DNA of 58,262 bases from a virus (IMGVR_UViG_3300044259_000151:1-58262); one strand, 5' to 3'. Shown: positions 16,776-58,262, counted from the first letter of the stretch. Notes: generated by a model from the letters alone, not told the origin. A program made the numbers and translations.

Positions 16776-16945
16776 CGATGGAAGGTCGGCAAACCACGTC
16801 GCTGTTCCGCGTGCATTTCCTCGATGGTTCCAACCTCGACATTCCGGCGGCAAGCCCCGCCGCCGCCCGCGAAAAGGCAGAGCCTCTGGCAAAGCGGCAG
16901 GAAACGAAAATCACCAAGGTCAAGCTGCTGCGGGAGAAGGATTGA
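16772..16945 (+). CDS. Small hypothetical protein
   Basis: Coupled ORF FRVHFLDG...ITKVKL. Confidence 0.6.
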   Translation: MTMEGRQTTSLFRVHFLDGSNLDIPAASPAAAREKAEPLAKRQETKITKVKLLREKD

Positions 16946-17436: not shown

Positions 17437-17438
17437 CA

Positions 17439-17789
17439 ATGAGTGCACCCATCATCCGCGATGCCCAGGCGCTGCTGGGCATGCTGGAAAGCGGAGACCT
17501 GAACAGCGAAATGACGGAAACGGTCGAAGGCGTTCTGAAAAAGCTTTCCGAGCTTTCCACCGATCGGCCGCAGGCTACCTTCAAGGGCGAGGTTTCGCTC
17601 AAGATCAAGTTCGCCGTGAAAAACGGCATGGTGGATATCGACGCGGAAATTCCGCCGCCGAAACTGCCGAAGCTGCCGCGCAAGACATCCGTCTACTTCC
17701 TCACCGAGGAAGGCCGGCTTTCCACCGAACATCCGCAGCAGCGCGACATGTTTCCGGGTCCGCGCGAGATCGATCACCGCCGCCAGTAA
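17439..17789 (+). CDS. Phage protein in the YfdP position (partner of DUF2303)
   Basis: GEVSLKIKF...KLP...YFLTEEGRLSTEHPQQ; directly upstream of the YfdQ-like gene. Confidence 0.7.
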   Translation: MSAPIIRDAQALLGMLESGDLNSEMTETVEGVLKKLSELSTDRPQATFKGEVSLKIKFAVKNGMVDIDAEIPPPKLPKLPRKTSVYFLTEEGRLSTEHPQQRDMFPGPREIDHRRQ

Positions 17790-17831
17790 GGCGCCGGCGT
17801 AACACTCTTCAGTCCCAACGGAGATTTCCCC

Positions 17832-18761: not shown

Positions 18762-18822
18762 TCCGCTTCGCCTCGCCTCTCCGCCGCATCACGCGGGCCT
18801 GCCGGAGAGGCGTTCGAAACGG

Positions 18823-19146
18823 ATGGAGACCGATATGAAAAACATTATCCGCGCAGACCTTGAAGCTTTGGCGATGCAGACATGCGATGCGGTGACCGGA
18901 GAACCCGCATTTCCGCATGAACTGCAGGATTTGGACAGCAATCAGCTGCTCACCCTCGTCACCGTCGCGCAGTTCGTGACCGATCTTTGCATCAACGAGC
19001 TGGAGCGCCGCAACATGCTGGAGGCGTGCGAGGATTGCGGCGGCCCGCAGGTGCCGTACATCAGCGATCACGGCGTCCTGACCATCTTCACGCGCGACAA
19101 TGACGAAGGCCAACCCGCTGGCGCAGGCCAGCCCACGGCGCATTGA
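18823..19146 (+). CDS. Hypothetical protein
   Basis: ORF with a GGAG RBS; one CxxC. Confidence 0.55.
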   Translation: METDMKNIIRADLEALAMQTCDAVTGEPAFPHELQDLDSNQLLTLVTVAQFVTDLCINELERRNMLEACEDCGGPQVPYISDHGVLTIFTRDNDEGQPAGAGQPTAH

Positions 19147-19152
19147 TCCGCC

Positions 19153-19449
19153 ATGCCCGCCGTCCCCGTCACGCCGCATCCGATCAGCGCCAATCCGGCC
19201 GCGCAAAACCCGCTTGCGGCGCTGACCAGATCCGAACGGGCCTGCCTGCAGGCCATTGCCTTTTACCGCCGGCAAACCACGACGATCGGCGGCGTGCGGA
19301 TCGGGGATCGCATCTGGCACGGCCGCACCCTGCAAAGCCTGCGCCGCAAGCAGATGATCAGCGGCGCGCCACCCGCCTTGCGCCTGACCACCGCCGGACA
19401 GCTGGCGCTGGATCGCCTTTCCAACCGCATAAGGAAACACGCATCATGA
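19153..19449 (+). CDS. Hypothetical protein, winged-helix-like
   Basis: LTRSERACL...TLQSLRRKQMI...LTTAGQLAL. Confidence 0.55.
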   Translation: MPAVPVTPHPISANPAAQNPLAALTRSERACLQAIAFYRRQTTTIGGVRIGDRIWHGRTLQSLRRKQMISGAPPALRLTTAGQLALDRLSNRIRKHAS

Positions 19450-19973
19450 CGACGGAACATGCACCGCAGCGGTTGTGGTATCCGGTCGATCTGCTGGACG
19501 AGATTCTGCCCACCGGATTGTCCTCGGCCGAGGCCTGGTTCGATCCAGGCATGCAGCGGCAACTGGACGAGCATGAGGCAAGCTATATTCGCCGGCACGG
19601 GCCAGGCGATCGCATCGCGTTCATCTGGATCGAGGATCGCGGCACGGTCGAGCTTGCCATCAATCTGGATGGTACGCTCAATCGCCCCATGCACTGCCGC
19701 GAGACGCCAGACCTGTTTGGCGCTCCGCCACCGCCACCTCCGGATGAAATCCCGGCCGATGCGAATGTTTTCTGGGAGGCGGAAAGCGAGACTTACGCCG
19801 AAAGCGCCGAGGAATTCGCACAGCTTTACGCGGACCCCTATGCGGATGGTGGCATTCTGCACGTCACCGTTCATGTCTCGCACCAGAGCCGCGCCATCCA
19901 TTTCGAGGTCGGCCCCGATGGCCGCAGCCTCATGCAAATTGAACCCCTGAAACAGGAAAACACCTCATGCTGA
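19446..19973 (+). CDS. Acidic hypothetical protein
   Basis: AGGA RBS and ATGA coupling. Confidence 0.6.
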   Translation: MTTEHAPQRLWYPVDLLDEILPTGLSSAEAWFDPGMQRQLDEHEASYIRRHGPGDRIAFIWIEDRGTVELAINLDGTLNRPMHCRETPDLFGAPPPPPPDEIPADANVFWEAESETYAESAEEFAQLYADPYADGGILHVTVHVSHQSRAIHFEVGPDGRSLMQIEPLKQENTSC

Positions 19974-21076
19974 CCGCCAGCCGCGCCGCGCTGACCGCGG
20001 CCCTCTCGCTCTCGGGCAAGATTGTCGAGCGCCGCAACACCATTCCGATCCTCTCCAACGTGCTGTTCACGCGCGGCGAAAAGGGCCTCGCCCTGCGCAT
20101 GACGGATCTGGATATCGAGCTTCAGGTGGAGGTTGCCGCAGATCTCGCCATGGATTTCAAGCCCTTCACCGTGCCGGCGAACTTGCTGCACGAGATTGTG
20201 CGCAAGCTTCCGGAAGGCGCGGATTGCACGCTGGAGCCGGCGGATGCCGGGGCAAGCCAGATGCGGCTCAAAAGCGGCCGCTCGAAGTTCACACTGCAGG
20301 TGCTGCCGGAACAGGATTTCCCGGCTACCATTGCCGATGGCAGCCTCTGCCGTTTCAGCGTGCCGGCCAAGACCTTTGCCGCGGCGCTCTCGGCCGTCTC
20401 TTTCGCGATTTCGACGGAGGAGACGCGCTATTATCTGAACGGCGTGTTTTTCCACCCGGCGCCCTGCGGCGTGCTGCTGGTGGCAACGGATGGTCACCGG
20501 CTGGCAAAGCGCGCCGTGCCACTGCCAACAGGCGCACCGGCCGGCATGCCGGGCGTCATCATCCCGCGCAAGACGGTTGGCGTGCTGGCAGCGCTGTTGC
20601 CCGCCGACGGCGAGGTGACGATCGACGTTTCGGACGCCCGGATCACGTTTCACCTCGAGGGCAAGCGCCTGTCCTCGAAACTGATCGACGGCACGTTTCC
20701 GGATTACCAGCGCGTCATCCCCCAGGGCACGGCGCCCGTGGCCGAGCTGGAAGGCACCGCCCTCAAGGCCGCCGTGGACCGCGCCTCCACCGTGGCAATC
20801 GACAAGGGCCGCGCGATGAAATTCGCGTTTACCCCCGGTGGCCTTTCGCTGTCGGTCCAGAACCCGGATGCCGGCACCTCCGAGGAAACGCTGGATTACG
20901 AGGGAGAGATCGATCTGGCGATCGGTTTTAACGCCAAATACGTGCTGGACGCCATCAACAACCTGCCGAACGGCACACTGACCATGTCCATCACCGACGC
21001 CGGCAGCCCCGCCATTCTCCGCGCCGATGGCGACCATGCGGAAAACCTGGTCGTGCTGATGCCGATGCGGGTGTGA
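19967..21076 (+). CDS. dnaN: DNA polymerase III beta subunit (sliding clamp), phage-encoded
   Basis: RRNTIPILSNV, STEETRYYLNG, VATDGHRL, SKLIDGTFPDYQRVIP, GFNAKY, VLMPMRV. Confidence 0.97.
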   Translation: MLTASRAALTAALSLSGKIVERRNTIPILSNVLFTRGEKGLALRMTDLDIELQVEVAADLAMDFKPFTVPANLLHEIVRKLPEGADCTLEPADAGASQMRLKSGRSKFTLQVLPEQDFPATIADGSLCRFSVPAKTFAAALSAVSFAISTEETRYYLNGVFFHPAPCGVLLVATDGHRLAKRAVPLPTGAPAGMPGVIIPRKTVGVLAALLPADGEVTIDVSDARITFHLEGKRLSSKLIDGTFPDYQRVIPQGTAPVAELEGTALKAAVDRASTVAIDKGRAMKFAFTPGGLSLSVQNPDAGTSEETLDYEGEIDLAIGFNAKYVLDAINNLPNGTLTMSITDAGSPAILRADGDHAENLVVLMPMRV

Positions 21077-24376: not shown

Positions 24377-24652
24377 ATGACCGCCCGCCGACCAGCGCAA
24401 ATCCCGCCGGGCACATGGCCGCCGCGCATGATGGCGGAAATGGCTGCAGGCTATTGTGGCGAGCGGCATGTGGAGGATTTTCTGGCGCGCGTGGGCACGG
24501 TCTATCCGAAACCGCGCACGCAGGAGACGACACGCCGCAAATTCTGGTATCGCTCTGATCTCGACAAGGCGCTGGGAATTGGCGCAGATAACCAGGTCAA
24601 TGATCTGGGGGCAAAATTCCGTGAGGCGATCCGGGAAAAGCGGCGTGGTTGA
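24377..24652 (+). CDS. xis: Excisionase-like DNA-binding protein
   Basis: WPPRM.AEMAAGYCG...YPKP...WYRSDLD; immediately upstream of int. Confidence 0.7.
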   Translation: MTARRPAQIPPGTWPPRMMAEMAAGYCGERHVEDFLARVGTVYPKPRTQETTRRKFWYRSDLDKALGIGADNQVNDLGAKFREAIREKRRG

Positions 24653-25826
24653 ATTGCCGAAATTCGTGCACCGCGTCAGGAAGACGCGCAAACGCGGGGC
24701 GCCCATGGTCTATACCTTTTATACCCGCCACCGGAACACGTCGGCAGCCTGGCCGTCGCTGGCCCTGCCGGATCCGCTGGAACGCGAGTTTTCCCGCCGG
24801 CTGGCAATCTGCGAGCAGATGGAGCGCGACGGCAGGGGGTTTACGCTGGATGGCGTCCGCCTGCCGGATCACAAGCACCCGGATTTCTGGCGTGAGGCCG
24901 AAAAGGCGCTTTCGGCGCTGGAAAAGCGCGGCCGAGAGAATCGCAGGGATTTCCACGCGCTGGTCGAGGCGTTCCAGAGCGAAAACAACCCGCACTGGTC
25001 CAGCCTTGCCGCATCCACCCGACGCGGCTACGCGGCGAGCGGCAAAATGGTGATCGAGATCTGGGGGGATGATCTGCCGGCCGAGCTGTCAACGGTCAAT
25101 GCGCAGGAGGCAATTGACGCGCTCGGCGAAACGCCCGCGACCGCCAACCAGTTCCGGGCCTACCTGTCCCGCCTCATGGCATGGGGCATCCCGCGCGGCT
25201 TTTGCCACGCAAACCCGGTCGAACACACGGAAAAAATTCCGGGCACGGAGCCGTGGTCACCATGGCCGGAATGGGCCTTCGAGATCCTGCTGCAGCACGC
25301 TCCGTTTCACCTGCAGCTGATTGCCATGAGCGCCTTTTTCACGGGCCAGCGCCAGGGCGATGTGCTGCAAATGCGCCGCCCGAAAAGCGATGACGCCACC
25401 ATTGAGGTCCGCGCCCAGAAAACCGGCCGCACCGTGTGGGTGCCGATCCACTCCGCCTATCGCCGGTGGATCGAGCGCGCCCCGAAGGACGGCATCATGC
25501 TGCACGCCGCCGTGCGCCAGCCGAGTTACAAGACGCCGGACGGTTTCCGCTCGGAATGGCAAAAGCTGATGGACAAGCCCGAATTCAAGCCGTTCCGCGA
25601 ACACCGCATTGTCTTTCACGGCCTGCGCAAAAATGCCGTGATCAATCTGCTTGAGGTCGGCTGCACGGAGGCCCAGGCAGGCGCCATCTGCAACATGTCT
25701 TCGCAAATGGTGCAGCACTATGGCCGCGAGGTATCGCTGCGCGCACTGGCGCGAGACGCCATGAAGCTGATGGAGGAGCGCTGGCCGGAGATCGAGCCCC
25801 TTGCCATGCGCGATCCGCGCCGGTAA
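24645..25826 (+). CDS. int: Tyrosine integrase
   Basis: TGQRQGD (R), QKTG (K), HGLRK (HxxR), QHYG (Y); GTG start overlapping xis; adjacent to attP. Confidence 0.93.
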   Translation: MVELPKFVHRVRKTRKRGAPMVYTFYTRHRNTSAAWPSLALPDPLEREFSRRLAICEQMERDGRGFTLDGVRLPDHKHPDFWREAEKALSALEKRGRENRRDFHALVEAFQSENNPHWSSLAASTRRGYAASGKMVIEIWGDDLPAELSTVNAQEAIDALGETPATANQFRAYLSRLMAWGIPRGFCHANPVEHTEKIPGTEPWSPWPEWAFEILLQHAPFHLQLIAMSAFFTGQRQGDVLQMRRPKSDDATIEVRAQKTGRTVWVPIHSAYRRWIERAPKDGIMLHAAVRQPSYKTPDGFRSEWQKLMDKPEFKPFREHRIVFHGLRKNAVINLLEVGCTEAQAGAICNMSSQMVQHYGREVSLRALARDAMKLMEERWPEIEPLAMRDPRR

Positions 25827-49594: not shown

Positions 49595-50080
49595 TCAGTC
49601 GATGATGGCGCTCGGCGGCGTGGCCTGCTTGTAGCTGGTATCCAGATAGGCCGTGGCCGAAACGAAATTGGTGGCCTGCGACGACGTCGCCTGCGTGAAG
49701 TAGATGCAGTCATAGCCGTTGGCCATATCGAGGCGGGCCGGATCGATTTCGAACACGACCTGCTTGTTCTTGACGTCGGCGGCAACGGCATAGGAGGCCG
49801 CGTCGGTCTGGCGCACCAGGGTATCGGTGGCAGCCGTATCCTCATTGGCCCAGATGGCAACAGAAGGTCCGGCCTTGTTGGTGCTGCCGGCAACCGAGGT
49901 GGCCTGCCGCAGCGTCGGCGTGGTCGCGTGGCCGGCGGCCTGCGTGTACTCGAACACGACCCAGGCCTTGTGCGCCGTCTTGAGGCTGATCACGTCGGTG
50001 GTCAGCGCGCCATTGGTGGTCTGCGGCTGCAGCATCTGGACGATCTTGAAATGCTGCGGAAGCGAAAGCTGTCTTGCCAT
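49595..50080 (-). CDS. Putative capsid decoration/accessory protein
   Basis: GAGGAG RBS; first gene after the capsid gene. Confidence 0.6.
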   Translation of the reverse strand: MARQLSLPQHFKIVQMLQPQTTNGALTTDVISLKTAHKAWVVFEYTQAAGHATTPTLRQATSVAGSTNKAGPSVAIWANEDTAATDTLVRQTDAASYAVAADVKNKQVVFEIDPARLDMANGYDCIYFTQATSSQATNFVSATAYLDTSYKQATPPSAIID

Positions 50081-50185
50081 GGTGATGGCTCCTCTGGTTT
50101 GAAAGCGACCTACACCAGCAGGTCACCGGGAAATGGCCGCCGCAACGGTCACTGCGGCGGCCAGTTTCGCATATGCGCGAAACGA

Positions 50186-51568
50186 TCAGCCGCGGGTGGC
50201 GAGCGTGACGAACGGCGACAGGGTGTTCGCGCCCTTGTAGGGCGTCAGCGGCGCGTGCCAGATCGGCCGGCCATCGACGCGATAGGTGATGCGGAACACC
50301 ATTTCGTCGGTCAGGAAGGCAACGTGCATGGAGGACGCCATGTTGACGCCGCCCTTGTCGGCCAGAGAGTACTGGCCGAAATCGACCAGCGAAATGTCGC
50401 CTTCCGTGCCCAGCGTATCGGCATATTCGACCGGCATGACCGGGCGCCCGAACAGCGTCCCGTAAGGCTGTCCCGAAATGCCGTTGGCCGGCAGATAGAC
50501 CGGCACACCGGCGGTCCCGATCACCTGAGACATCGAATACAGCTGCGGCTCGACATCCTGATTGATCAGCCACATGGAGTTGGCGCGCGACCGCGCCCAC
50601 ATGCGAGACCACATGTCGAGCACGTTGTCGTAAGTGATGGTCTTGGCCGTCTGCCCGGTTCTCTTGGCGACGGCAACCTTGGCCGGCGAGTTGAGGAAAC
50701 CAAGCGGCATGCCGCCGCCCGAGCCGCGGAACATCGCGTCCTCGGTCATGAACGCGATTTCCTCCGAGAATGCCTGGGTGGCGATTGTGCTCATCACGGA
50801 GGCATCGGCCATCAGTTCGTCGGAAACATACCAGTTGGCCATCAGCTTCTTCAGGTCGAGCTCGACCAGACGGAACTTCGGCTTGCTGCGCGTGGCTGCG
50901 TCACCTTCACCGACCCAGTAGGACTGGACGCCACCCCAACGGCTGCCGGTGGCGCGGCTGGTTTCGTCGACTCCGGGGATCTTGATACCGTTGGCGGCGG
51001 TGGACAACGACAGTTTCTGGGCCTGGCTCATGATCTGGCCCATATCGTAGGCGCGGGCGAACACAGCGGTCGCGAAATCGGTCTGCACCAGGAAGCCGCC
51101 GGCGGACGGATCGACTTCACCGGCACCCGTTGGCGCGCGCTGCAGGCGAGGGTCCATGCGACCAGGGTCGCGCGTAAGGTAATAGTTGGCAACGGCGCGC
51201 AGCTGTTCGCCGAAAGAGCCGAAATGCTGCTGCGGATCCGGCGTGAAATTCAGGGTCGAACGCACACCGCGGATGTAATCGTCAGCGGACCAGGTCTGCC
51301 GCACCGAGCGCGACGCAAGATGGTCCAGCGAAAAGCCGGTCGGGACGGTGATTGCGGTCTGTTCATCGCCCGTTCCGCCGGTGGCCGGACGCGCCAGCGA
51401 CGCCGAGCGCGCGCGCGCCTTGGTCAGGCGGTCGATCTCACCCTGCAGGTCCTCGATTTCCTTTTCCTTGGCGGAATACTTGCCAGCGTCACGCACGAAT
51501 TCATCCGTGCCCAGCTGATCGACAGCCCTGCTCAGGGCCTGGCGGAGTTCGGTCAGTTTATCCATCAT
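50186..51568 (-). CDS. Major capsid protein, HK97 fold with N-terminal delta domain
   Basis: AGGFLV, WVGEG, SDELM.D, G.G.G.PLG, TLFGRPV, FR..YRVDG.P. Confidence 0.95.
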   Translation of the reverse strand: MMDKLTELRQALSRAVDQLGTDEFVRDAGKYSAKEKEIEDLQGEIDRLTKARARSASLARPATGGTGDEQTAITVPTGFSLDHLASRSVRQTWSADDYIRGVRSTLNFTPDPQQHFGSFGEQLRAVANYYLTRDPGRMDPRLQRAPTGAGEVDPSAGGFLVQTDFATAVFARAYDMGQIMSQAQKLSLSTAANGIKIPGVDETSRATGSRWGGVQSYWVGEGDAATRSKPKFRLVELDLKKLMANWYVSDELMADASVMSTIATQAFSEEIAFMTEDAMFRGSGGGMPLGFLNSPAKVAVAKRTGQTAKTITYDNVLDMWSRMWARSRANSMWLINQDVEPQLYSMSQVIGTAGVPVYLPANGISGQPYGTLFGRPVMPVEYADTLGTEGDISLVDFGQYSLADKGGVNMASSMHVAFLTDEMVFRITYRVDGRPIWHAPLTPYKGANTLSPFVTLATRG

Positions 51569-51682
51569 ATATCTCCTTGTGACGGATGAGCCGCGCATGC
51601 GGCAATGTTCCCGCGCCAGGTGGCTGCGGATCTCGGTGGTGTGCGATGTCGGGATACGTGGCGCGCTGGACGCGCAAACAGG

Positions 51683-53326
51683 TCAGGCGGTTGCAGCAAC
51701 CGCGATGCGGAGTTTCATGGCCGCCGCGCGGCGAAGGCGAATGGCGCGCTCGGTTTCGTCCGCATCAACAGCATCACTTTCCTCCGGGGCGCTCTTTTCC
51801 AGAAGTTCGCGGATCATGCCGCATCCGCGGTCGATCATGTCATGCGCTTCATGGAGCATCGCGGCGTTGTCTGAGGAAAGCATCTTTCCGGCGCGGGCCA
51901 TGGATGCGCGAGCGCGATTGCGCAGCAGAGAAACCGCACGGCTGCGGCTGGTGGCCGCATCATCGGTTTCTTCAGCCGGGCCAAGCATGGCAGCCACTTC
52001 TTCGCCGACCAGCTGGACCAGGACCTCACCCAGCGCAGCCTTGATGACCATCAGCTCATCCGGGATCACGGTTTCCTTTTCACGGTATTGCTTTTCCCAG
52101 TCGATATCCTGCTGCACGCAATCGAGGTCGCACAGCACGCTGGCCAGCCAGCTGACATGGTACATGGAGCGCTTGAATTCCTCGATCGTCATTGTGGTTC
52201 CTTTTGATGGTGCGCGCGCTGAAGGCGGGAATTCAGCCTCGACAAGATCGTCACCCCACCCATCGGAAATTTCTTCAAAGCGCTCGGGCCCAAGAACGAT
52301 TGGGCCGTCATAGGCAACCACGTCCGCCGGGGCATCGCGATAGGTGAGCGTCACATGCGGGTGATATTCGGCGAAATCCCACGAAGCGCCGGCATCGCGG
52401 ATTTCCTGCCAGCGAGAGGCAAGGGCGTCGCTGCGGAAGCGCAGCACCTTTGCGCCACCATCGCCGAGCGGCGTGACGGTTCTTGCATCGTCGCGTTCGA
52501 CGGTCAGCTCATCGTCACTAGGCGTCAGACTTGACCAGTCCAGAGGCTCCCGGCTGTAGGCGACGGTGACGTGCATATCCTCGCCGGGCAGCGAGCTGGC
52601 GAAGCCCGCATCGCGCATCCATGACCGGATTTCATCGTGATTAACCACCGGCCGCGATACGTACAAGGTCTTGCCGGATGCACGCTTTCCGATGGGCATG
52701 CGAGCCGCGCGGCGCAGATTTTCAACATCTGCACGCGCCATCATCATCATGCCGCCTTCATCGAGAATGCGGCCTGCCCAATCGAAAATCGGGCTTGTGT
52801 CGATGCCATTGGCGCGGGCCGTCACAAGCGCCGTCGGGAGGGATGGAACGGGCACCTGCGAAATTTCCATCAGGTCCACCAATTCGAAGTCAACGCCGCC
52901 AGGGCGTGATTTGTCGTTGGCAAGACGCCATTTCAGCGGGTCCCATGATACCGAGGTGGCATTGAGATAACCCTCCCTGACCATCTGAAAGATGGTGTCG
53001 GCAAAGGGATAGATTTCCCGGTCCATGTATTCCACGGACCCGGAGAGTACGCCATCGCGCTGCACGAGATCGACGACACGGCCAATCGGCGGCTGCGACA
53101 GATCATGGGCCCAGAGAAACACCGGGTTCCGCAGGTAGTTATCCAGAGTCCAGGCAGCGATCGTGTGATTGTCGCGTGCGACCGACGGGTCGGAAAACAG
53201 ATAGCGGATGATCCGGCCATTGCTGTTGGCAAGATCGACCTGACCAGCGGCACGCATGACGGCGGTCTTTTGCGGGGGCGCACTGGTCACTGCCTGCCGC
53301 GCAAAATCGTCAATCGTGATGGTCAT
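51683..53326 (-). CDS. HK97-type prohead protease with an inserted 2H-phosphoesterase (Acb1-like) domain and a C-terminal helical domain
   Basis: NPVFLWAHD...PIG, GYLNATSV, LMEISQVPVPS.P.A protease motifs; then TLYVSR...HVTVAYS...HPHVTLTY...LGPE.FEEI. Confidence 0.9.
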   Translation of the reverse strand: MTITIDDFARQAVTSAPPQKTAVMRAAGQVDLANSNGRIIRYLFSDPSVARDNHTIAAWTLDNYLRNPVFLWAHDLSQPPIGRVVDLVQRDGVLSGSVEYMDREIYPFADTIFQMVREGYLNATSVSWDPLKWRLANDKSRPGGVDFELVDLMEISQVPVPSLPTALVTARANGIDTSPIFDWAGRILDEGGMMMMARADVENLRRAARMPIGKRASGKTLYVSRPVVNHDEIRSWMRDAGFASSLPGEDMHVTVAYSREPLDWSSLTPSDDELTVERDDARTVTPLGDGGAKVLRFRSDALASRWQEIRDAGASWDFAEYHPHVTLTYRDAPADVVAYDGPIVLGPERFEEISDGWGDDLVEAEFPPSARAPSKGTTMTIEEFKRSMYHVSWLASVLCDLDCVQQDIDWEKQYREKETVIPDELMVIKAALGEVLVQLVGEEVAAMLGPAEETDDAATSRSRAVSLLRNRARASMARAGKMLSSDNAAMLHEAHDMIDRGCGMIRELLEKSAPEESDAVDADETERAIRLRRAAAMKLRIAVAATA

Positions 53327-53769
53327 TGCGCGGTATCCTCCGCAATGGTTGCGGACAGCATCCATGCCCACTTCTTGTGCGCATCCATGCGTTCCTGCAG
53401 GTAATTGCTCAATCCCCGCTCCAGCTGAATGGTTGCTCGCCGGTCGGCCTCACCCAATGCATTAACCACGGCAGCATTGGCATCAATCAGTTCGACAATC
53501 ATGGCGGCGGTTGTCGGAATGCCGGCGAACGTGATGGATGCCGGTGCTGCAATCTCATCGAGCGACGCTGGCGCCATGGCATTGAGCGTGCGGATCCGTT
53601 CGGCCAGGCCGTCAACAGCGCCATGCGCATCCTCGTAAATGTCGCCGAACAGTTCGTGCAGCTGCGGGAAAAGCGGGCCCCGCACGTTCCAGTGAAAACT
53701 GTGCGCCTTGAAATACAGGCACCAGGTTTCGGCCAGCGCCGTCCTGATGGCAGTCAACAGCTCATCCAT
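53323..53769 (-). CDS. dps: Dps-family mini-ferritin
   Basis: KAHSFHWNVRGP.F..LHELF...Y......D.LAERIRTL...H.K..WML; AGGAG RBS; overlaps portal and protease. Confidence 0.93.
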   Translation of the reverse strand: MDELLTAIRTALAETWCLYFKAHSFHWNVRGPLFPQLHELFGDIYEDAHGAVDGLAERIRTLNAMAPASLDEIAAPASITFAGIPTTAAMIVELIDANAAVVNALGEADRRATIQLERGLSNYLQERMDAHKKWAWMLSATIAEDTAQ

Positions 53770-55189
53770 ACACATACTCCTTGTCGCGCAGGAAAGACGA
53801 GCCACCGGCCGCACGAAGACGGCGCGAGATTTCCTCAAGGGCAACGTCATCGTGGCCATGGCGCGGGGCAGCGGCTGCCTTTGCTGCCGTCACGGCCGGG
53901 CCACGCGCCGCAGATTCCTGCTTGCTCGGTCGGCCAGCGTCATCAGGCGCCGTTCCCGTGGACTGGCTGCCCGACGCCGCCATATTCTGCGGGAAATGCA
54001 ATTTGGCGGCCTCGCCGCCTTCCGGGCGCATGCCAAGATCAATGCGGGCCTCATCCGGCGTTGCCATCATTGACATAATCATGGTGCGCCAATTGTTGAC
54101 GCGCGCCGTCATGTCGGCCGTCGTCAGTTCGCGGTAATCGAAATCGATCGAACGACCATCACGCCACAAACCGAACGTGCTTTCGATTTTCCGGCTCCAG
54201 CGGTTGGTGTAACCGGTCAGCGTGTAGTTGACATATTCCTGCGACTGCTGACCGATGTTGTTGTTGGTCGAGCGGTCGAGAATGCCGACCATGTGCATCG
54301 GCACCCGGAAAATGCGCACGACATCCTCAAGCTGAAACTTGCGGGACGCGATGAATTCCAGATCGGCCGATGTCATTTCCAGCGCCGAGAATTTCACGCC
54401 CTGCTCAAGCACCGCAGTTTTGCCAGAGTTCTGCAACCCACCGAACATCGTTCGCCAGTCTGAAGACATGCGTTCGGCGGCGCCCGGCGACAGTTTCTGG
54501 TCCGTCATCAGAATGCCGGACGGCTTGGCACTGTTGCCCATCCAGCGGGCTGCCTGCTGTTCCTGCGCGATCGACAGCCCGATGGCCTCGCGCGCGACCG
54601 AAATGCGCGACACACCCAGAAGCCCATTGAGCGAGAAGCCGCGAATATGCAGCATGTCGCCATCGGGAATGAGAAATGGCTGCCCGGCAAGTTCCGAGCG
54701 CAAATGCAGGCCCTGTGGCGTGACGCGGTAGAACAATCCGCCGTCCGGGGCTTCCCACAGAGCGACCCAATCCGCATTGATCGGGACAAGCTTGATGGGA
54801 TATCCGCGCCGATCGCGCACGATCACTGAATAGGCATTGCCCCGCAGCACAAGGCTGATTTGTTTCTGTTCCCGGTACTCCAGCCCGTTCTGCCAGTCGT
54901 TCGGTTCCTGCAACAAATCCGACAGGTAATGCGCACGATCTTCGACCTTGCTGCCATCGTCCAGGCGCTGGTTCACCGACCATGGCAGTTTTGCCACATC
55001 CTCGGCCAGCATTGTGACGCAGGCCAAAACCGCAGACGCGCTCAAGGCGGACTGCTGATTGACCGCGACCCCGGTAACCGACGGGGTGGAAAACACAGAG
55101 TCCTGCCACATCCGCGGGTCATCCATGCTTTCGGAGCCCGAGCGGCTGTTTGCCCCGCGCGCGATGGTGCCAAAGATGCCACGCGCCAT
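53762..55189 (-). CDS. Portal protein, HK97 family
   Basis: AVLACV..LAEDVAKLP, EPNDWQ, LRGNAY, MLHIRG, AVLEQG, RIFRVP. Confidence 0.95.
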   Translation of the reverse strand: MARGIFGTIARGANSRSGSESMDDPRMWQDSVFSTPSVTGVAVNQQSALSASAVLACVTMLAEDVAKLPWSVNQRLDDGSKVEDRAHYLSDLLQEPNDWQNGLEYREQKQISLVLRGNAYSVIVRDRRGYPIKLVPINADWVALWEAPDGGLFYRVTPQGLHLRSELAGQPFLIPDGDMLHIRGFSLNGLLGVSRISVAREAIGLSIAQEQQAARWMGNSAKPSGILMTDQKLSPGAAERMSSDWRTMFGGLQNSGKTAVLEQGVKFSALEMTSADLEFIASRKFQLEDVVRIFRVPMHMVGILDRSTNNNIGQQSQEYVNYTLTGYTNRWSRKIESTFGLWRDGRSIDFDYRELTTADMTARVNNWRTMIMSMMATPDEARIDLGMRPEGGEAAKLHFPQNMAASGSQSTGTAPDDAGRPSKQESAARGPAVTAAKAAAAPRHGHDDVALEEISRRLRAAGGSSFLRDKEYVYG

Positions 55190-55368
55190 CAGCCAGCCCT
55201 CGATGCCAGATAACTGCCGACGATCGCGAGCGCGCCACCCACGATGAAACCGGCAGCCGGCGTGATGATGTACGCGCCATAGGCAACGCTTCCGGCGCCC
55301 GCAATGCCGACGACATCCCGGACAACAATTGGCGTATAGACCGCAATGGCCCGGAGAACCGTTTTCAA
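55189..55368 (-). CDS. Small membrane protein between terL and portal (59 aa, absent from the ORF track)
   Basis: TAAGGA RBS, TTG start, two hydrophobic segments, TGATG coupling to portal. Confidence 0.7.
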   Translation of the reverse strand: MKTVLRAIAVYTPIVVRDVVGIAGAGSVAYGAYIITPAAGFIVGGALAIVGSYLASRAG

Positions 55369-55377
55369 GGCGTGTCC

Positions 55378-57180
55378 TTATCCGAAAAACAAGAGGCCGC
55401 GATCGGCGGAATAGGCAAGAGCCTGCTGGTAGGGCTCCGGGTTCTTCACCATGACCGTCGCCGCGTTGAACAGCGCGATGGCCGGGTCAATCTTGGCGTC
55501 ACCCGCCGTCTGCTTGGTCGCGCGGATGGCGGTCGCCGTGGGCTCGATTTTCAGGTTGGGCACACACCAGCGCATCAGCGGGCCACCGGTGTGCAGCAGC
55601 ATGCCATTCGAGAGACCGCGCTCGCAGGTCTTGATCGGGTTCATCAGGGCAAAACCCTGCGGCACGCCGACAAGCAGGCCATTATCCTGCGTGATATCCA
55701 CATCCGGCGCGGCCATGGCCTCGACGAAATCGCCCAGGCAGGCAGGGTCAACGGCGGTGGCGGCCAGCAAATCCCTGTCTTTCACCAGACGGATGATTTC
55801 GATGATGGCGGCAATATCCTCGAGCGCCGTATCGAAAATCGTCAACTGGCCGGATTTCTGAATATCCAGCAGGATCGGCGCAATTTTCTTGCGCCGCTTG
55901 AGCACGTCCCGGTGGCAAAACGCATGCGACCAGGCAAGCCAGCGCTTTCTGGATGCACGGCCGCCCATCGGAAACATTTTTCCGGTAAGTTCGACTTCAT
56001 CCTGTTCGCGGCCGAGGACGCAAAGACCGAACAGGTCATCCAGGCCACCGCCATCAATGCCAACGACCGCGACTTCGCAACGGTCAAGCAGCCGATCCAG
56101 CGCCTCGAAATGCGGCAGGGCGGCCAGTTCCGGATCTTCCGCCCGGTCCCAGTAATCCGAGCCGACCCAGCGGTTGGCCCGGTTGCGCATGCCGATTTCG
56201 ACATTGAGGTGCTTTGCCAGAAAGCTCTGGACGGTGTCCCGCTCCTCATCCGCGCCGGAACGCACGTTCTGGAATTTCCGCTCCAGCCAATCCTGGCGCA
56301 CCGATCGCCCCATATTGGGGTTGGTGATGTACCAGTTGGCCGGGTCGAGATAGGCCTCGTTTTCCAGCATCGCATCCGGGAACTCGTAGAGTACCGGCAG
56401 GGAGGCTGGATCGTCGATCTTGCCATCGCGAACATCGCGAAAATAATCCAGCTTTTCCTTGAACACGCCGGCCGGAGGCTCATCCGATTGCGTGGTGATG
56501 TAGATGACGAACCCTTCCGGGCGCGAAATCAGGCCGCCGGTGGCCTCCTGCAACATCGCGCTGGCGCCGGCTTTCTTGCCAAACAGCCACAGCTCCTCGA
56601 CCAGAACGAACGCAGCTTTCTTGCCCGAGGCCGTCTTGCTGTCTGCCGACACAACCTTCAGGACCGCGCCGGTCAGTTCGTGCGTGATCTGCTTCAGCTG
56701 ATCCTGCACGCGCAGCAATTTTACCAGCTCCGGATCCGCGCGCACCATGGCGGCCGCCGGCTTGAAACTGTTGCCAGCCACCTCCTGCGTGGGGGCCAGG
56801 ATCAGCAGTTCCTGATGATGACGCCAATTGCGGATGAGCGCCGTCAGCATGATGCCGGCGGCGATGGTGGACTTGATGTTCTTCTTCGAGATGAGGAGCA
56901 TGAACTCCTCAATGTGCCGTTTGGCATTCGCTGCATCGTAGGCGCCGAAAATGGCGGCCACGAAATCAAACACATAGGGCTCGCAGACTTCGCCGAATGT
57001 CGGGTGCCGGTGGCGCTCCAGCCTGCGATCGTAGAACTGTGGCAGGTCGCAGATCTGCAGGTCGCGGAACACCGATAACGCCGCCTCAGCCTCGTCGGGA
57101 AACAGAGGCTCAAACGGGATCAGGCTTTCGCGCGCAACGATGCGGCGCTCCCAATCCGGGCAGGCGGTTGTCCAGCGCAT
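55378..57180 (-). CDS. terL: Terminase large subunit
   Basis: WTTACPDW, KKNIKS Walker A variant, VEELW Walker B, ITTQS, GIDGGGLDDL, KIDP. Confidence 0.95.
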   Translation of the reverse strand: MRWTTACPDWERRIVARESLIPFEPLFPDEAEAALSVFRDLQICDLPQFYDRRLERHRHPTFGEVCEPYVFDFVAAIFGAYDAANAKRHIEEFMLLISKKNIKSTIAAGIMLTALIRNWRHHQELLILAPTQEVAGNSFKPAAAMVRADPELVKLLRVQDQLKQITHELTGAVLKVVSADSKTASGKKAAFVLVEELWLFGKKAGASAMLQEATGGLISRPEGFVIYITTQSDEPPAGVFKEKLDYFRDVRDGKIDDPASLPVLYEFPDAMLENEAYLDPANWYITNPNMGRSVRQDWLERKFQNVRSGADEERDTVQSFLAKHLNVEIGMRNRANRWVGSDYWDRAEDPELAALPHFEALDRLLDRCEVAVVGIDGGGLDDLFGLCVLGREQDEVELTGKMFPMGGRASRKRWLAWSHAFCHRDVLKRRKKIAPILLDIQKSGQLTIFDTALEDIAAIIEIIRLVKDRDLLAATAVDPACLGDFVEAMAAPDVDITQDNGLLVGVPQGFALMNPIKTCERGLSNGMLLHTGGPLMRWCVPNLKIEPTATAIRATKQTAGDAKIDPAIALFNAATVMVKNPEPYQQALAYSADRGLLFFG

Positions 57181-57197
57181 GCGCGGTATGACCTTGG

Positions 57198-57518
57198 TCA
57201 GGCGGCCGGCTGGCTCTGCTGCCACAGAGATTGGCGCAGCAAGTATCCCTCAAAAGCCCAAATCTTGTTGCGGGCATTGTCGCGAGCGATCTTGCGGCCG
57301 ATCTCTTGATCAAAATTTTCCGGGCTGGCGGCCGCACTTTCCCCAGTCACGCAAAAGCCGTTCTGCAGCGTCAGGCAGCACACCGTTAGCGTCGTTCCGT
57401 GGAAAACATGGTATTGCTCGCCGGCAATCTGCGCGTCAATCAGCTCCGGCGTCAGCCGCGGCGCCTTCAAGCCCTTGGCCTGAATTTCCGCCTCGATGGC
57501 CTGTTCATCTTTCACCAT
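57198..57518 (-). CDS. Gp49 / Sf6 gp66 family protein (candidate nucleotide-signal sponge)
   Basis: APRLTP..ID..I, LTVC.L.LQNGF.VTGESA.ASPENFD.EIGRKIA..NA..KIW..EGY.L. Confidence 0.85.
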   Translation of the reverse strand: MVKDEQAIEAEIQAKGLKAPRLTPELIDAQIAGEQYHVFHGTTLTVCCLTLQNGFCVTGESAAASPENFDQEIGRKIARDNARNKIWAFEGYLLRQSLWQQSQPAA

Positions 57519-57588
57519 TCTCTTCTTGTCCTCGACCGGGAACATTGCCGGTGGTTGTCATCACGTATTCAGCGGTCCCGCCACCGTC

Positions 57589-58077
57589 TTACTCGGTGGC
57601 CAGAGCCTGGCCGTTGCTGGACACCAGCCGCGGCGGAGGCGGAGGCGGCGCGAACTTGCCGCCGACCTGCGCAGCCTCATCGCGCTTCGTCTGCTTTTTG
57701 CTCACGTAGCCCCGGGCCGGCGCATTTGCCGCCTTGGACCGCAGATCGCGCTCCGTCCGCTCGGCGGCCACGCTGTCCAGCGTCTTGATCGCGGCCGAAA
57801 GCGCCGCAGCATTCCCACCCAACCCCTGTTGGATCTGCGCGGCGCGCAACTTGGTCCGCAACCGTTTCAGCATGGCGGCCTTTTCGCGGAGGATGTGGCC
57901 GTAGTGCTTGCGCAAGGTTTTGGCATCCACGCCGAGCGTTGCCGCGATGTCCTTGACCGGCTCACTGGCGGCAACCATCAGCGAGACCATGATTGTGCTC
58001 TGTTCGGTCGGCTCATGCCCCGGCCGGCCGCGCGGTGGGAAGTATGGGTTGCCGAAGAGGTCAAGATCCTGCGTCAT
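57589..58077 (-). CDS. terS: Terminase small subunit
   Basis: DLFG.P...RGRP.H.PT, HTH IAATLGVDAKTLRKHY, GNAAA, KF.P.PPP; first gene after the genome end. Confidence 0.85.
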   Translation of the reverse strand: MTQDLDLFGNPYFPPRGRPGHEPTEQSTIMVSLMVAASEPVKDIAATLGVDAKTLRKHYGHILREKAAMLKRLRTKLRAAQIQQGLGGNAAALSAAIKTLDSVAAERTERDLRSKAANAPARGYVSKKQTKRDEAAQVGGKFAPPPPPPRLVSSNGQALATE

Positions 58078-58262
58078 CGCTCCATCATTCCCCAAGCGGC
58101 CAAACAGGGAAATATTCCGCGCTTTTCACCCGCCACCGCCGCTTGGCAATTATCAACCCATTGATGCCGCTTGCTTTTTCATCAAGCCCGCCCACCGCAA
58201 CACCAAACCCCACCCGCACGACGGGAAAAATCACCCTCCCCGAAAAAAAACATGCAAATGAG

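What the first reader, a model, noticed from the sequence alone, without database searches (positions are those of the whole stretch)
51683..57518. Packaging/head operon interleaved with a candidate counter-defence set: terS-[Gp49]-terL-portal-[Dps]-[protease::2H phosphoesterase]-capsid
Seen: three non-structural modules are placed in the normally compact packaging block. A Gp49-family gene lies between terS and terL. Dps overlaps the portal stop by 8 nt and the protease start by ATGA. A 2H domain is in frame inside the protease. Established: late/head proteins such as terminase, portal, capsid and prohead protease are known triggers of anti-phage systems, and Acb1-type 2H enzymes destroy CBASS cyclic oligonucleotides. 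Inference: each trigger is co-expressed with, or fused to, a countermeasure (signal nuclease, signal sponge, iron/ROS sink). This is the best candidate in the window for an undescribed system.
Basis: partly seen in the sequence, partly recalled or inferred. Interest (0 to 1): 0.92.

Follow-up and report, generated by a model that had tools for sequence, protein, structure and literature searches.

The report
Phage head genes carrying anti-CBASS cargo
A temperate phage of root-associated bacteria has slipped two recognisable anti-immunity genes and an iron-handling Dps gene into its head-building operon, one of them built into the very protease that is known to set off the bacterial alarm it destroys.

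Summary
On the minus strand the order is putative terS, Acb4-family gene (PF13876), TerL, small membrane protein, portal, Dps, prohead protease with an internal Acb1 domain (PF23474), capsid. The 8-nt and ATGA overlaps are exact.

Two of the three inserts belong to characterised anti-CBASS families. The Acb1 domain keeps both HxT motifs. It is a clean insertion between the protease domain and a conserved helical C-terminal domain.

The "one undescribed system" reading is not supported. None of 87 portal-related loci held Acb4, Dps or Acb1 by tblastn. Relatives carry other cargo at the same junctions: PBECR3, DSPc phosphatase, DnaJ and unknown domains.

2H domains fused to portal or MuF head proteins are already in print (Iyer 2017, 2022). 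Here the carrier is the prohead protease, a proven CBASS trigger in T4.

Unexpected extra: Dps fused to prohead proteases is widespread. The search gave 263 protein clusters, and all 120 listed carry both domains. My two paper searches found no description of this. The window has an unfused, translationally coupled form from a separate Dps lineage.

Verdict: new variant of a known kind, moderately interesting.

The parts
57589..58095 (-). Putative small terminase subunit (168 aa)
   Evidence: Only phrog_12540 (unknown function), E 9e-22. Homologues at 31-37% identity lie directly upstream of TerL in L011, L072, L079, L125 and L126. The assignment rests on position only.
57198..57545 (-). Acb4-family (PF13876, Gp49/gene 66) candidate cyclic-dinucleotide sponge; likely start at 57518
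   Evidence: Pfam E 3.3e-31. PDB 9e4w E 3e-4. AF2 model pLDDT 80; top Foldseek hit 9e4w, probability 1.0, TM 0.66-0.72. Homologues begin at the second Met.
55378..57225 (-). Large terminase subunit (start 57225 GTG or 57180 ATG)
   Evidence: PF03354 and PF20441; phrog_9 E 7e-112; start candidates read.
55189..55368 (-). 59-aa small membrane protein between TerL and portal
   Evidence: phrog_502 E 4.5e-11. A gap of about 160-260 nt at this place occurs in 18 of 66 related loci, and direct homologues are seen in some of them.
53762..55189 (-). Portal protein
   Evidence: PF04860 E 4.5e-89.
53323..53769 (-). Dps (148 aa), ferroxidase residues intact, translationally coupled on both sides
   Evidence: PF00210. 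PDB 8ff9 E 3e-22. H26, H38, D53 and E57 are invariant in 16 of 16 aligned phage Dps sequences. Overlaps read.
52694..53326 (-). Prohead protease domain (residues 1-211 of the 547-aa protein)
   Evidence: Peptidase_S78 E 6e-4, just below cut-off; phrog_80. Relatives are annotated as HK97 prohead protease. AF2 pLDDT 85-96; best Foldseek hit T4 gp21 5jbl, probability 0.99, TM 0.48. H74 and S125 are invariant in 14 sequences.
52202..52693 (-). Acb1-family 2H phosphoesterase domain inserted in the protease protein (residues about 212-375)
   Evidence: PF23474 E 5.2e-35, profile 1-143 of 144. Pam3 portal C-terminus 8hds E 2e-22 and Acb1 7t26 E 7e-10. HxT motifs at H252/T254 and H324/T326. Insert-less relatives align on both sides.
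51683..52201 (-). Conserved all-helical C-terminal domain (residues 376-547), scaffold-like; possible internal start at 52192
   Evidence: It aligns with the C-termini of the insert-less proteases P0011, P0015, P0019 and P0039. AF2 gives five long helices, pLDDT mostly 70-94. AAGGA lies 7 nt before the ATG at 52192.
50186..51598 (-). Major capsid protein with an N-terminal region of about 165 aa ahead of the HK97 fold
   Evidence: PF05065 at residues 167-455, E 2e-46.

Best explanation
This is the late packaging and head operon of a temperate phage of Hyphomicrobiales (Rhizobiales). It has picked up three accessory modules independently, at junctions that are insertion hot spots in this phage lineage.

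(1) A small Acb4-family protein sits between terS and terL. It most likely forms an oligomeric sponge that sequesters CBASS-type cyclic dinucleotides (inferred).

(2) An Acb1-family 2H phosphoesterase domain has an intact HxT/HxT catalytic tetrad. It is inserted between the catalytic domain and the helical C-terminal domain of the prohead protease. It most likely hydrolyses cyclic oligonucleotide alarm signals (inferred).
- Because it is part of the protease polypeptide, it is made at the same time and in the same amount as the protease.
- In T4 the prohead protease is the protein that switches a CD-NTase on.
- The domain is also likely drawn into the prohead with the protease (inferred).

(3) A Dps with an intact ferroxidase site is translationally coupled to the portal and the protease. 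Its role is the least certain.
- It may simply have landed in the portal-protease hot spot.
- The widespread fusion of Dps to prohead proteases elsewhere suggests a head-associated role instead.

Shown here: gene order, overlaps, family membership by sequence, the catalytic motifs, the Acb4 fold, the insertion topology, and the lack of co-occurrence in relatives.

Inferred: all activities, encapsidation and timing.
For: Family matches:
- PF13876, E 3e-31.
- PF23474, E 5e-35.
- PF00210, E 5e-16 (all).

PDB matches:
- 9e4w Acb4; 7t26 Acb1; the Pam3 portal C-terminus 8hds; Dps 8ff9.
- The Acb4 model matches 9e4w with probability 1.0.

Catalytic motifs:
- The HxT/HxT tetrad defined in Hobbs 2022 (PMC9117128, passages read) is present.

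Insertion topology:
- Alignment A1 shows a clean insertion between two domains that insert-less relatives share.
- It also shows an independent N-terminal Acb1::protease fusion in P0038.
- L126 carries a portal::Acb1 fusion directly upstream of the protease.

The Acb1 domain as a fusion module:
- 126 of the 149 best library hits to this domain are 300 aa or longer.
- In a census of 75 of them, fusions were as follows:
  - 8 to Peptidase_S78_2 and 1 to Peptidase_S78;
  - 7 to Mu_F;
  - 5 to Portal_Mu, 4 to Phage_portal_3 and 4 to Phage_portal;
  - 7 to ART-PolyVal.

Hot spots in relatives:
- 21 of 50 relatives have 423 nt or more extra between portal and protease.
- 8 of 21 have 127 nt or more extra inside the protease gene.
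- 0 of 5 have anything between terS and TerL.
- Other cargo is seen there.

Expression:
- No minus-strand promoter-like site was found in 50000-58262. Terminator-like sites numbered 3, against 7.7 expected.

A target exists:
- SMODS CD-NTase scores over its cut-off in 38 of 401 sampled genomes of the host order.

The trigger:
- T4 gp21 protease activates a CBASS CD-NTase by cleavage (preprint passages).
Against: - No activity was measured.
- The AF2 model of the Acb1 region is poor (pLDDT 32-58), so its fold rests on sequence alone.
- The Peptidase_S78 match is just under Pfam's cut-off.
- Only 3 of the 10 SPO1 Acb4 ligand-contact residues are identical (F64, F78, I82), plus one conservative change (D79). 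This is my mapping onto section 7 of PMC11722364, so the ligand cannot be named.
- GC3 of the inserts (0.66-0.72) is not sharply different from the protease and portal (0.69-0.73). The time of acquisition is therefore unknown.
- The closest relative (P0002, 83% identity, a Rhizobium sp.) could not be inspected for Acb4 or Dps. Co-inheritance within the immediate lineage is untested.
- The window's Dps is not nested in the protease-fused Dps clade.
- In 3 of 3 cultured phages checked, Dps lies among replication and nucleotide-metabolism genes.
Confidence: 0.6

Rival explanations
1. Virion cargo for the next cell. The Acb1 domain, and perhaps Dps, is carried into the prohead by the protease and freed by self-cleavage. 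It is then kept in the mature head and delivered with the DNA, so the counter-measure is already present when infection starts. This is the model Iyer et al. proposed for 2H fused to MuF or portal.
For: - The Acb1-like domain is attached again and again to proteins that end up inside the head. These are portal C-termini, MuF and prohead proteases.
- In the window it lies between the protease and the conserved C-terminal domain.
- Iyer 2022 (PMC9503650, passages read) states this reading for 2H-MuF and 2H-portal fusions, and for Nudix fused to the capsid-processing peptidase.
- Head-packaged anti-restriction proteins are established in P1 (Dar) and T4 (internal proteins) (PMC9024508, passages read).
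Against: - There are no virion proteomics data.
- In T4, CBASS is activated late, so an injected enzyme is not obviously needed.
- Fragments of prohead proteases usually leave the head in HK97 (recalled, not checked).
- A folded Dps dodecamer could not pass a tail tube.
Confidence: 0.25
2. The three inserts are one co-selected counter-defence system in which each head protein that triggers immunity is paired with its own antidote.
For: - All three sit in one operon with tight coupling.
- Two are anti-CBASS families.
- The protease is a known CBASS trigger.
Against: - 0 of 87 portal-related loci carry any of the three.
- L126 has Acb1 without Acb4 or Dps.
- Acb4 relatives at 52-79% identity sit in unrelated phages. 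In L094, L099 and L091 they lie in structural modules of another type.
- Relatives hold different cargo at the same junctions.
Confidence: 0.06
3. The 2H domain is not an anti-CBASS enzyme. It acts on RNA ends (2',3'-cyclic phosphate healing) or acts as an RNase, as in other 2H families.
For: - phrog_755 is labelled 'RNA ligase'.
- Weak matches to 2_5_RNA_ligase2 (E 0.0025). LigT_PEase matches 20 of 75 relatives.
- Iyer 2017 (section 20) offered an RNase role as one option.
Against: - The Acb1 profile fits far better (E 5e-35 against 0.0025) and over its full length.
- Direct similarity to the solved Acb1 7t26 includes both HxT motifs.
- No RNA ligase turned up in the parts of the window examined (30 proteins).
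Confidence: 0.08
4. Dps is only a passenger. It would be an iron or oxidative-stress auxiliary gene that landed in the portal-protease hot spot, with no link to head assembly or to defence.
For: - 21 of 50 relatives have unrelated inserts at this junction.
- In 3 of 3 cultured phages checked, Dps sits with replication or nucleotide-metabolism genes.
- The 5 standalone viral Dps loci examined showed no recognised head genes beside them. L103, L104, L105 and L108 were checked by Pfam on neighbours. L109 was checked only by tblastn with the window's proteins.
- The window's Dps lies outside the protease-fused clade.
Against: - Dps::prohead-protease fusions are numerous. There are 263 clusters, and all 120 listed carry both domains.
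- They involve two protease families and both domain orders.
- The window's gene is start- and stop-coupled to the portal and the protease.
Confidence: 0.4

Closest known systems
Acb1 of phages T4 and FBB1 (Hobbs et al. 2022, PMC9117128; PDB 7t26)
   Same: Same Pfam family (PF23474, E 5e-35, full profile length). Both HxT motifs are present. Direct sequence match to 7t26 at E 7e-10.
   Different: T4 and FBB1 Acb1 are free-standing proteins of about 150 aa. Here the domain is an internal segment of a 547-aa prohead protease protein. Activity is untested. The words 'fused' and 'portal' do not occur in that paper's main text. Its supplementary list of 273 Acb1 proteins could not be seen.
Acb4 of Bacillus phage SPO1 (Chang et al., PMC11722364; PDB 9e4w)
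   Same: Same family (PF13876). The model matches 9e4w with probability 1.0 and TM 0.66-0.72. The ENF-D/N-xEIGR core is conserved.
   Different: About 28-30% identity. 6 of the 10 named ligand contacts differ. There is an extra N-terminal helix. Oligomer state and ligand were not tested. Table S3 of that paper (1,331 homologues) could not be seen.
2H domains fused to MuF or portal, and polyvalent proteins (Iyer et al. 2017, PMC5512222 section 20; 2022, PMC9503650 section 3.4.5); Pam3 portal gp3 (PDB 8hds)
   Same: The same Acb1-like 2H subfamily is attached to head-internal proteins. The Pam3 portal C-terminus is the best PDB match (E 2e-22). Portal fusions occur in Pseudomonas, Rhizobium and Synechococcus phages.
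   Different: The carrier here is the prohead protease, and the domain is internal rather than terminal. Those papers name MuF and portal for 2H, and name the capsid-processing peptidase only for Nudix.
T4 prohead protease gp21 as CBASS activator (bioRxiv 10.64898/2026.03.04.709575; PDB 5jbl)
   Same: The window's protease domain has gp21 as its best structural match (probability 0.99, TM 0.48). It plays the same role in head maturation.
   Different: 13% identity. Whether this protease activates any CD-NTase is unknown. T4 encodes Acb1 as a separate gene.
Dps::prohead protease fusion proteins of uncultured phages (L107:2749-4161 / P0275 and 262 further clusters; no name found)
   Same: Dps with the same ferroxidase residues, linked to a prohead protease right after the portal gene.
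   Different: In the window the two are separate genes joined by an ATGA overlap. The window's Dps lies outside the fused clade in the tree.
Encapsulin nanocompartments with ferritin-like cargo (recalled, no call)
   Same: An HK97-fold shell gene next to a ferritin-superfamily gene.
   Different: This is a complete phage with terminase, portal, protease and tail genes. No cargo-loading peptide was identified. This is not a member.

Membership tests
Acb1 (PF23474, 2H phosphoesterase) | Full-length match to the family profile above its cut-off | tested here: met
   120.7 bits against a cut-off of 27, E 5.2e-35, profile positions 1-143 of 144.
Acb1 (PF23474, 2H phosphoesterase) | HxT/HxT catalytic tetrad (H44, T46, H113, T115 in T4; PMC9117128) | tested here: met
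   H252-V-T254 and H324-V-T326 align with the two HxT motifs of 7t26.
Acb1 (PF23474, 2H phosphoesterase) | Compact 2H fold | tested here: inconclusive
   The AF2 model of residues 212-380 has pLDDT 32-58, and no second fold job was available.
Acb1 (PF23474, 2H phosphoesterase) | Cleaves 3'3'-cGAMP and cyclic trinucleotides; rescues phage from CBASS | not testable with these tools
   Needs biochemistry and plaque assays.
Acb4 (PF13876) | Match to the family profile above its cut-off | tested here: met
   108.1 bits against a cut-off of 27, E 3.3e-31.
Acb4 (PF13876) | Protomer fold of SPO1 Acb4 (three-stranded sheet flanked by helices) | tested here: met
   Model pLDDT 80. The top 10 Foldseek hits are all 9e4w chains, probability 1.0, TM 0.66-0.72.
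Acb4 (PF13876) | Ligand-contact residues of SPO1 Acb4 (K36, F48, E49, V56, Y57, F62, N63, I66, T70, K81) | tested here: inconclusive
   3 of 10 are identical (F64, F78, I82), 1 is conservative (D79) and 6 differ. This is my mapping of the alignment onto. All eight homologues tested in that paper still bound 3'3'-cGAMP.
Acb4 (PF13876) | Tetrameric pinwheel; binds cyclic dinucleotides | not tested
Dps (ferritin-like, PF00210) | Profile match and ferroxidase-centre residues | tested here: met
   59.3 bits against a cut-off of 24.5. 8ff9 E 3e-22. H26, H38, D53 and E57 are invariant in 16 of 16 sequences.
Dps (ferritin-like, PF00210) | Lysine-rich N-terminal tail used for DNA binding by E. coli Dps (recalled) | tested here: not met
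   There is no Lys before K21, and the first helix starts at about residue 3 (sequence). DNA binding by that route is unlikely. This feature does not define the family.
Caudovirus prohead protease (Peptidase_S78) | Profile match, protease fold, conserved His and Ser | tested here: met
   The Pfam score of 20.3 bits is just under the 21-bit cut-off. Relatives at 50-66% identity carry PF04586. The best fold match is T4 gp21. H74 and S125 are invariant. The catalytic assignment is inferred.
Head-packaged effector fusions / polyvalent proteins (Iyer et al. 2017) | Effector domain fused to a head-internal protein (MuF, portal) in the late operon | tested here: met
   The Acb1 domain is in frame inside the prohead protease. 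The carrier differs from those named for 2H in the papers.
Head-packaged effector fusions / polyvalent proteins (Iyer et al. 2017) | Presence in the virion and delivery to the host | not testable with these tools
   Needs virion proteomics.
Encapsulin cargo system | Shell without portal or terminase; cargo with a loading peptide | tested here: not met
   Terminase, portal, protease and tail genes are present. No loading peptide was identified.

The most novel reading that the evidence does not exclude
Prohead proteases may be general loading vehicles that carry enzymatic cargo into HK97-type heads. The cargo seen includes Acb1, a DSP phosphatase, a HAD phosphatase, unknown small domains and, most strikingly, a ferroxidase-competent Dps. 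Phage heads loaded with Dps would be a viral counterpart of iron-storing encapsulins. They could protect packaged DNA from Fenton damage or carry iron. In this phage the Dps gene, coupled by ATGA to the protease, would be the unfused form of that arrangement. The protease::Acb1 fusion would tie a CBASS trigger physically to its antidote.
Probability: 0.2. Interest if true: 0.8.

Novelty: new variant of a known kind. Interest (0 to 1): 0.55.

Why it matters
Recent work shows that the prohead protease is what some CBASS systems sense. A natural protein in which that protease carries an Acb1 nuclease domain gives a direct test. One can ask whether phages couple a trigger to its antidote in one polypeptide, and whether the antidote travels in the particle.

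The wider pattern found here is that prohead-protease genes act as platforms for cargo. It points to a source of unannotated counter-defence domains.

The Dps-protease fusions number 263 clusters in the one search made. My two paper searches found no description of them. If Dps sits inside heads, that touches three topics: capsid-internal proteins, the evolutionary link between phage capsids and encapsulins, and iron carried by phage particles.

Tried and rejected
- **Complex prediction** of Dps with the full protease::Acb1 protein gave no answer. Both runs were under the mark and the controls were not folded. It counts neither for nor against binding.
- **AF2 of the 547-aa protein** on a mixed alignment (A3, 95 rows) gave a poor model for the Acb1 segment. 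MAFFT probably misplaced the short Acb1 rows. Both fold jobs were then spent, so no Acb1 fold comparison was made.
- **The closest relative's context.**
  - The search for related loci with the whole fusion protein in viral contigs gave 0 relatives.
  - The order-wide search gave 5 of 401 genomes at E <= 1e-10, none with a full-length match.
The prophage holding P0002 (83% identity) could therefore not be inspected.
- **Recent acquisition.** GC3 gave no clear signal.
- **Dps copied from a host-order chromosome.** The four cellular Dps genes of two Hyphomicrobiales genomes are only 24-30% identical. They form a separate, fully supported branch. Four sequences is a small sample.
- **The window's Dps as a split product of the fused clade.** It falls outside that clade, on a long branch with weak placement.
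  - Rows used: 53.
  - I left out 81 of the 107 S78-fused rows (every fourth was kept).
  - I kept all 13 S78_2-fused rows, P0271-P0274, 5 viral standalone rows and 4 cellular rows.
- **Paper searches for a description of Dps-protease fusions.**
  - 'Dps' with 'prohead protease' gave 2 papers. In the one I opened, 'DPs' means decoration proteins; the other I judged from its title and the start of its abstract.
  - 'ferritin' with 'prohead protease' gave 6 papers. Only one was opened (a tail-associated ferritin idea), and it does not describe the fusion. The other five I judged unrelated from their titles and the start of their abstracts.
  - 'ferritin' and 'Dps' occur 0 times in PMC5512222.
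  - This covers only the held library.
- **Supplements** are closed. Table S3 of PMC11722364 and the Acb1 list of PMC9117128 may already include these lineages.

Full report
**What the window is.** The window is a whole IMG/VR virus record of 58,262 bp that CheckV rates as complete.
- It is a temperate phage. It has an integrase-like gene at 24456-25826, a CII-like gene, a WYL regulator and a Bro-N protein.
- It also encodes a D5_N primase, a 908-aa DNA methylase protein, SSB and a DnaN clamp.
- Relatives of its portal and protease lie in Bradyrhizobium, Xanthobacter, Rhodoblastus and Methylocapsa genomes. The closest protease relative comes from a Rhizobium sp..

**The observation.** All genes of the finding are on the minus strand. 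Pfam and PHROG scans give this order:
1. A 168-aa protein with only phrog_12540 (unknown function). I accept it as a putative terS because its homologues sit directly upstream of TerL in five related loci.
2. A PF13876 protein (E 3.3e-31).
3. TerL.
4. A 59-aa membrane protein (phrog_502), which the finding did not mention.
5. The portal (E 4.5e-89).
6. A Dps (PF00210; PDB 8ff9, E 3e-22).
7. A 547-aa protein with a prohead protease domain and a PF23474 Acb1 domain (E 5.2e-35, profile 1-143 of 144).
8. The capsid.

I read the junctions base by base.
- The Dps ATG at 53769 overlaps the portal stop by 8 nt, and AAGGAG lies 7 nt upstream.
- The Dps stop and the protease start form ATGA, and GGAGGA lies 9 nt upstream.
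- The Acb4-family gene most likely starts at 57518, where its homologues start.
- No minus-strand promoter-like site was found across 50000-58262. Terminator-like sites were fewer than the shuffles gave (3 against 7.7). This fits one late transcript.

**The protease::Acb1 protein.** Fourteen relatives were aligned (A1).
- Residues about 20-211 are the conserved protease domain, with H74, S125 and E154 invariant.
- Residues 376-547 are a conserved C-terminal domain. Insert-less proteases of 375-460 aa (P0011, P0015, P0019, P0039) have it too.
- The Acb1 domain sits exactly between these two.
- AF2 models the protease domain with pLDDT 85-96 and the C-terminal domain as five long helices. The Acb1 segment is modelled poorly, at pLDDT 32-58.
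- The best structural match of the model is T4 gp21 (5jbl, probability 0.99, TM 0.48, E 0.026).

By sequence the Acb1 segment matches two solved chains:
- the C-terminal 160 residues of the Pam3 portal chain 8hds (E 1.8e-22);
- Acb1 of phage FBB1, 7t26 (E 7e-10).

Both HxT motifs are present, at H252/T254 and H324/T326. They form the catalytic tetrad in Hobbs et al. 2022.

**How common the fusion is.**
- Among 120 listed homologues of the whole protein, 4 carry PF23474: the window's own, P0002 (83% identity), P0003 (61%) and P0038.
- P0038 has the Acb1 domain at the N-terminus of the same protease family. That is a second, independent fusion.
- In L126, a related head module, Acb1 is the C-terminal end of the portal reading frame, directly upstream of the protease gene.

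**How the Acb1-like domain is used elsewhere.** A full-library HMMER search with the domain alone found 1,968 representatives at E <= 1e-3 and 273 at E <= 1e-30.
- Of the 149 best hits other than the query, only 23 are shorter than 300 aa, and 12 exceed 1,500 aa.
- I scanned every second one, 75 of the 149, against Pfam. All 75 match Acb1. Their fusion partners were:
  - Peptidase_S78_2 in 8 and Peptidase_S78 in 1;
  - ART-PolyVal in 7;
  - Phage_Mu_F in 7;
  - Portal_Mu in 5, Phage_portal_3 in 4 and Phage_portal in 4;
  - DUF2213 in 5.
- In cultured phages the domain lies in portal genes of Pseudomonas phage phiPSA1 and its kin, Rhizobium phages (RHEph04 and others), Synechococcus phages and Pam3.

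This is the pattern that Iyer, Aravind and colleagues described.
- In the 2017 paper (section 20), 2H domains are fused to MuF or portal in polyvalent proteins. They are suggested to act as RNases or to degrade defence nucleotides.
- In the 2022 paper, such fusions are suggested to be packaged into heads and injected. That paper names the capsid-processing serine peptidase as a carrier only for Nudix.

So the kind is known. The protease as carrier, and the internal position of the domain, are the variant.

**Why the carrier matters.** A 2026 preprint (passages read) reports three things.
- A late T4 factor activates a type II CBASS.
- The activation is proteolytic. The gp21 prohead protease is tested in wild-type and catalytically dead forms.
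- An LPE motif in a disordered loop of the CD-NTase is needed.

An earlier screen from the same laboratory names the prohead protease as a determinant of type I CBASS activation and evasion. I saw only its title in a reference list and the start of the preprint's abstract. The words 'fusion' and 'fused' do not occur in the 2026 preprint.

A protease that carries Acb1 in the same chain therefore couples a known class of trigger to a known class of antidote. Whether this protease triggers anything is untested. CD-NTase genes do exist in the host order: SMODS scores over its cut-off in 38 of 401 sampled genomes.

**The Acb4-family gene.** PF13876 is the family that Chang et al. define as Acb4.
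- The window's protein matches 9e4w by sequence (E 3e-4).
- It also matches by fold. The model has pLDDT 80, and the top ten Foldseek hits are all 9e4w chains (probability 1.0, TM 0.66-0.72).
- I mapped the ten ligand contacts named in the paper through the alignment. Three are identical, one is conservative and six differ. The ligand cannot be named, although all eight homologues tested in the paper bound 3'3'-cGAMP.
- Relatives at 52-79% identity occur in 14 IMG/VR loci, and none shows similarity to this phage's TerL, portal or protease.
- In L094 and L099 the gene lies in a structural module of another type, and in L091 it lies next to a head-closure gene.

It is a mobile gene that tends to sit among late genes.

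**Do the three inserts go together?** I fetched 70 viral and 17 genomic loci through the portal. I then searched them with the window's proteins by tblastn.
- 0 of 87 hold Acb4, Dps or Acb1.
- Extrapolated gaps show the following:
  - nothing lies between terS and TerL in 5 of 5 loci;
  - 423 nt or more of extra DNA lies between portal and protease in 21 of 50;
  - 127 nt or more lies between the two protease domains in 8 of 21.
- Pfam on 20 proteins from these places found several kinds of cargo:
  - a PBECR3 nuclease gene (L026);
  - a DSPc phosphatase fused to the protease (L043);
  - a DnaJ-domain gene (L124);
  - a second capsid-family gene (L006);
  - several inserts with no family.
- Six proteases carry an unknown domain of about 100 aa at the same internal site. 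Its nearest atlas clusters are small viral proteins without a family.

The junctions are hot spots with changing cargo, not a fixed triad. tblastn with single queries can miss distant homologues. The nearest relative (P0002) could not be inspected.

**Dps.** Dps is rare in cultured phages, matching 35 of 50,697 records. In the three I opened it lies among replication or nucleotide-metabolism genes.
- Eight IMG/VR loci hold relatives.
- In one of them, L107, the gene after the portal encodes a single 470-aa protein, with Dps at residues 26-164 and Peptidase_S78 at residues 253-407.
- A search with the first 230 residues of that protein found 263 clusters at E <= 1e-5. All 120 listed carry PF00210 together with a prohead protease family. 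By my count of the listing, 107 have PF04586, 13 have PF14550, and 46 also have PF03767.

Domain orders:
- HAD phosphatase, then Dps, then S78;
- Dps, then S78;
- S78_2, then Dps, sometimes followed by a Hva1_TUDOR domain;
- one InPase, then Dps.

Other points on Dps:
- The ferroxidase residues are invariant in 16 of 16 aligned sequences, the window's included.
- In a quick ML tree (53 rows) the protease-fused Dps domains form one clade (SH-aLRT 99), with the S78_2-linked ones nested inside it.
- All viral Dps are separated from four cellular Dps of two Hyphomicrobiales genomes (support 100).
- The window's Dps lies outside the fused clade, on a long and weakly placed branch.

So the window's Dps-protease adjacency is either an independent case of the same association or a chance landing in a hot spot. 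I put the two at roughly equal odds. My two paper searches found no description of Dps-protease fusions; I opened only one paper from each and judged the rest from their listings. The Iyer 2017 text never mentions ferritin or Dps.

**Mechanism, with what is shown and what is inferred.**
- Shown: gene order and coupling, family membership, catalytic motifs, the Acb4 fold, the insertion topology, recurrence of Acb1 and Dps on head-internal proteins, and lack of co-occurrence in relatives.
- Inferred:
  - The Acb4 homologue sequesters cyclic dinucleotide signals.
  - The Acb1 domain cleaves them.
  - Both act late, when head proteins and the protease accumulate.
  - The Acb1 domain enters the prohead with the protease. 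From there it may be released by self-cleavage and even carried to the next cell.
- The title of Duda, Oh and Hendrix 2013, on HK97 protease domains and encapsidation, was seen in a reference list. The paper is not held. Its content, that the protease C-terminus targets it into the prohead, is recalled.
- An in-frame ATG at 52192 has AAGGA 7 nt upstream. It lies just after the Acb1 domain. Its Met is conserved in the three proteins with the internal Acb1 insert and absent from the other 11 aligned proteins, including P0038, which is gapped there. It could give a separate scaffold-like product, as in nested protease and scaffold genes of other phages (recalled).

**Verdict.** The finding is real and well read at the level of annotation. 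Its 'undescribed system' claim does not hold.
- The protease::Acb1 protein is a new variant of a known kind.
- The Dps-protease link is the part most likely to be new.
- I score interest at 0.55.

Noticed in passing
L107:2749-4161 (IMG/VR locus) and proteins P0275-P0394: A large family of single proteins joins a Dps domain to a prohead protease (PF04586 or PF14550). Many also have an N-terminal HAD/PNKP-like phosphatase. There are 263 clusters in one search, and all 120 listed carry both domains. My two paper searches found no description of this.
   Followed up: partly
window 52190-52205 (minus strand): An in-frame ATG (M379) with AAGGA 7 nt upstream lies exactly at the end of the Acb1 domain. 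The Met is conserved in P0001-P0003 and absent from the other 11 aligned proteins, including P0038, which is gapped there. It is a possible internal start for a separate scaffold-like C-terminal protein.
   Followed up: partly
P0012, P0034, P0041, P0044, P0059, P0068 (for example P0044 residues about 210-330): An unknown domain of about 100 aa is inserted at the same site of the protease where the window has Acb1. Pfam finds no family. The nearest atlas clusters are small viral hypothetical proteins (scores 0.91-0.93). It is a candidate for further cargo or counter-defence domains.
   Followed up: partly
L043:4684-7179 (also L044-L047 and L064, same layout by tblastn): Prohead protease with an N-terminal dual-specificity phosphatase domain (DSPc, E 3e-11) in a more distant head module.
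   Followed up: no
L026:9364-9801: A PBECR3 (barnase/EndoU/colicin-like) nuclease gene sits between portal and protease in a relative, at the junction where the window has Dps.
   Followed up: no
L126:about 2316-4217: The portal reading frame continues into an Acb1-like domain (47% identical to the window's) and is followed at once by the protease gene. P0038 has the domain on the protease N-terminus instead. The domain seems to switch carriers at this junction.
   Followed up: partly
L010:1262-3250, L073:9302-11317, L004:7305-9290: Proteases of 661-671 aa with an internal insert of about 260 aa, or an N-terminal extension of about 190 aa, that matches no Pfam family.
   Followed up: no
L093:4759-6324; L097:6001-6318: In L093 the Acb4-like domain is the C-terminal end of a 521-aa open frame. 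This is a possible fusion or an ORF-calling artefact in GC-rich DNA. In L097 the Acb4 homologue has an in-frame stop.
   Followed up: no
window 8874-11600 (minus strand): A 908-aa protein whose C-terminal part is an N6/N4 DNA methylase. The N-terminal 540 residues have no Pfam match. It may be a further anti-restriction element.
   Followed up: no
window 16726-21076 (plus strand): The phage encodes its own SSB, a DUF2303 protein and a full three-domain DnaN sliding clamp.
   Followed up: no
P0274: Dps is fused to an InPase (inorganic pyrophosphatase) domain, a family known from polyvalent proteins. This is another non-protease fusion of a phage-type Dps.
   Followed up: no
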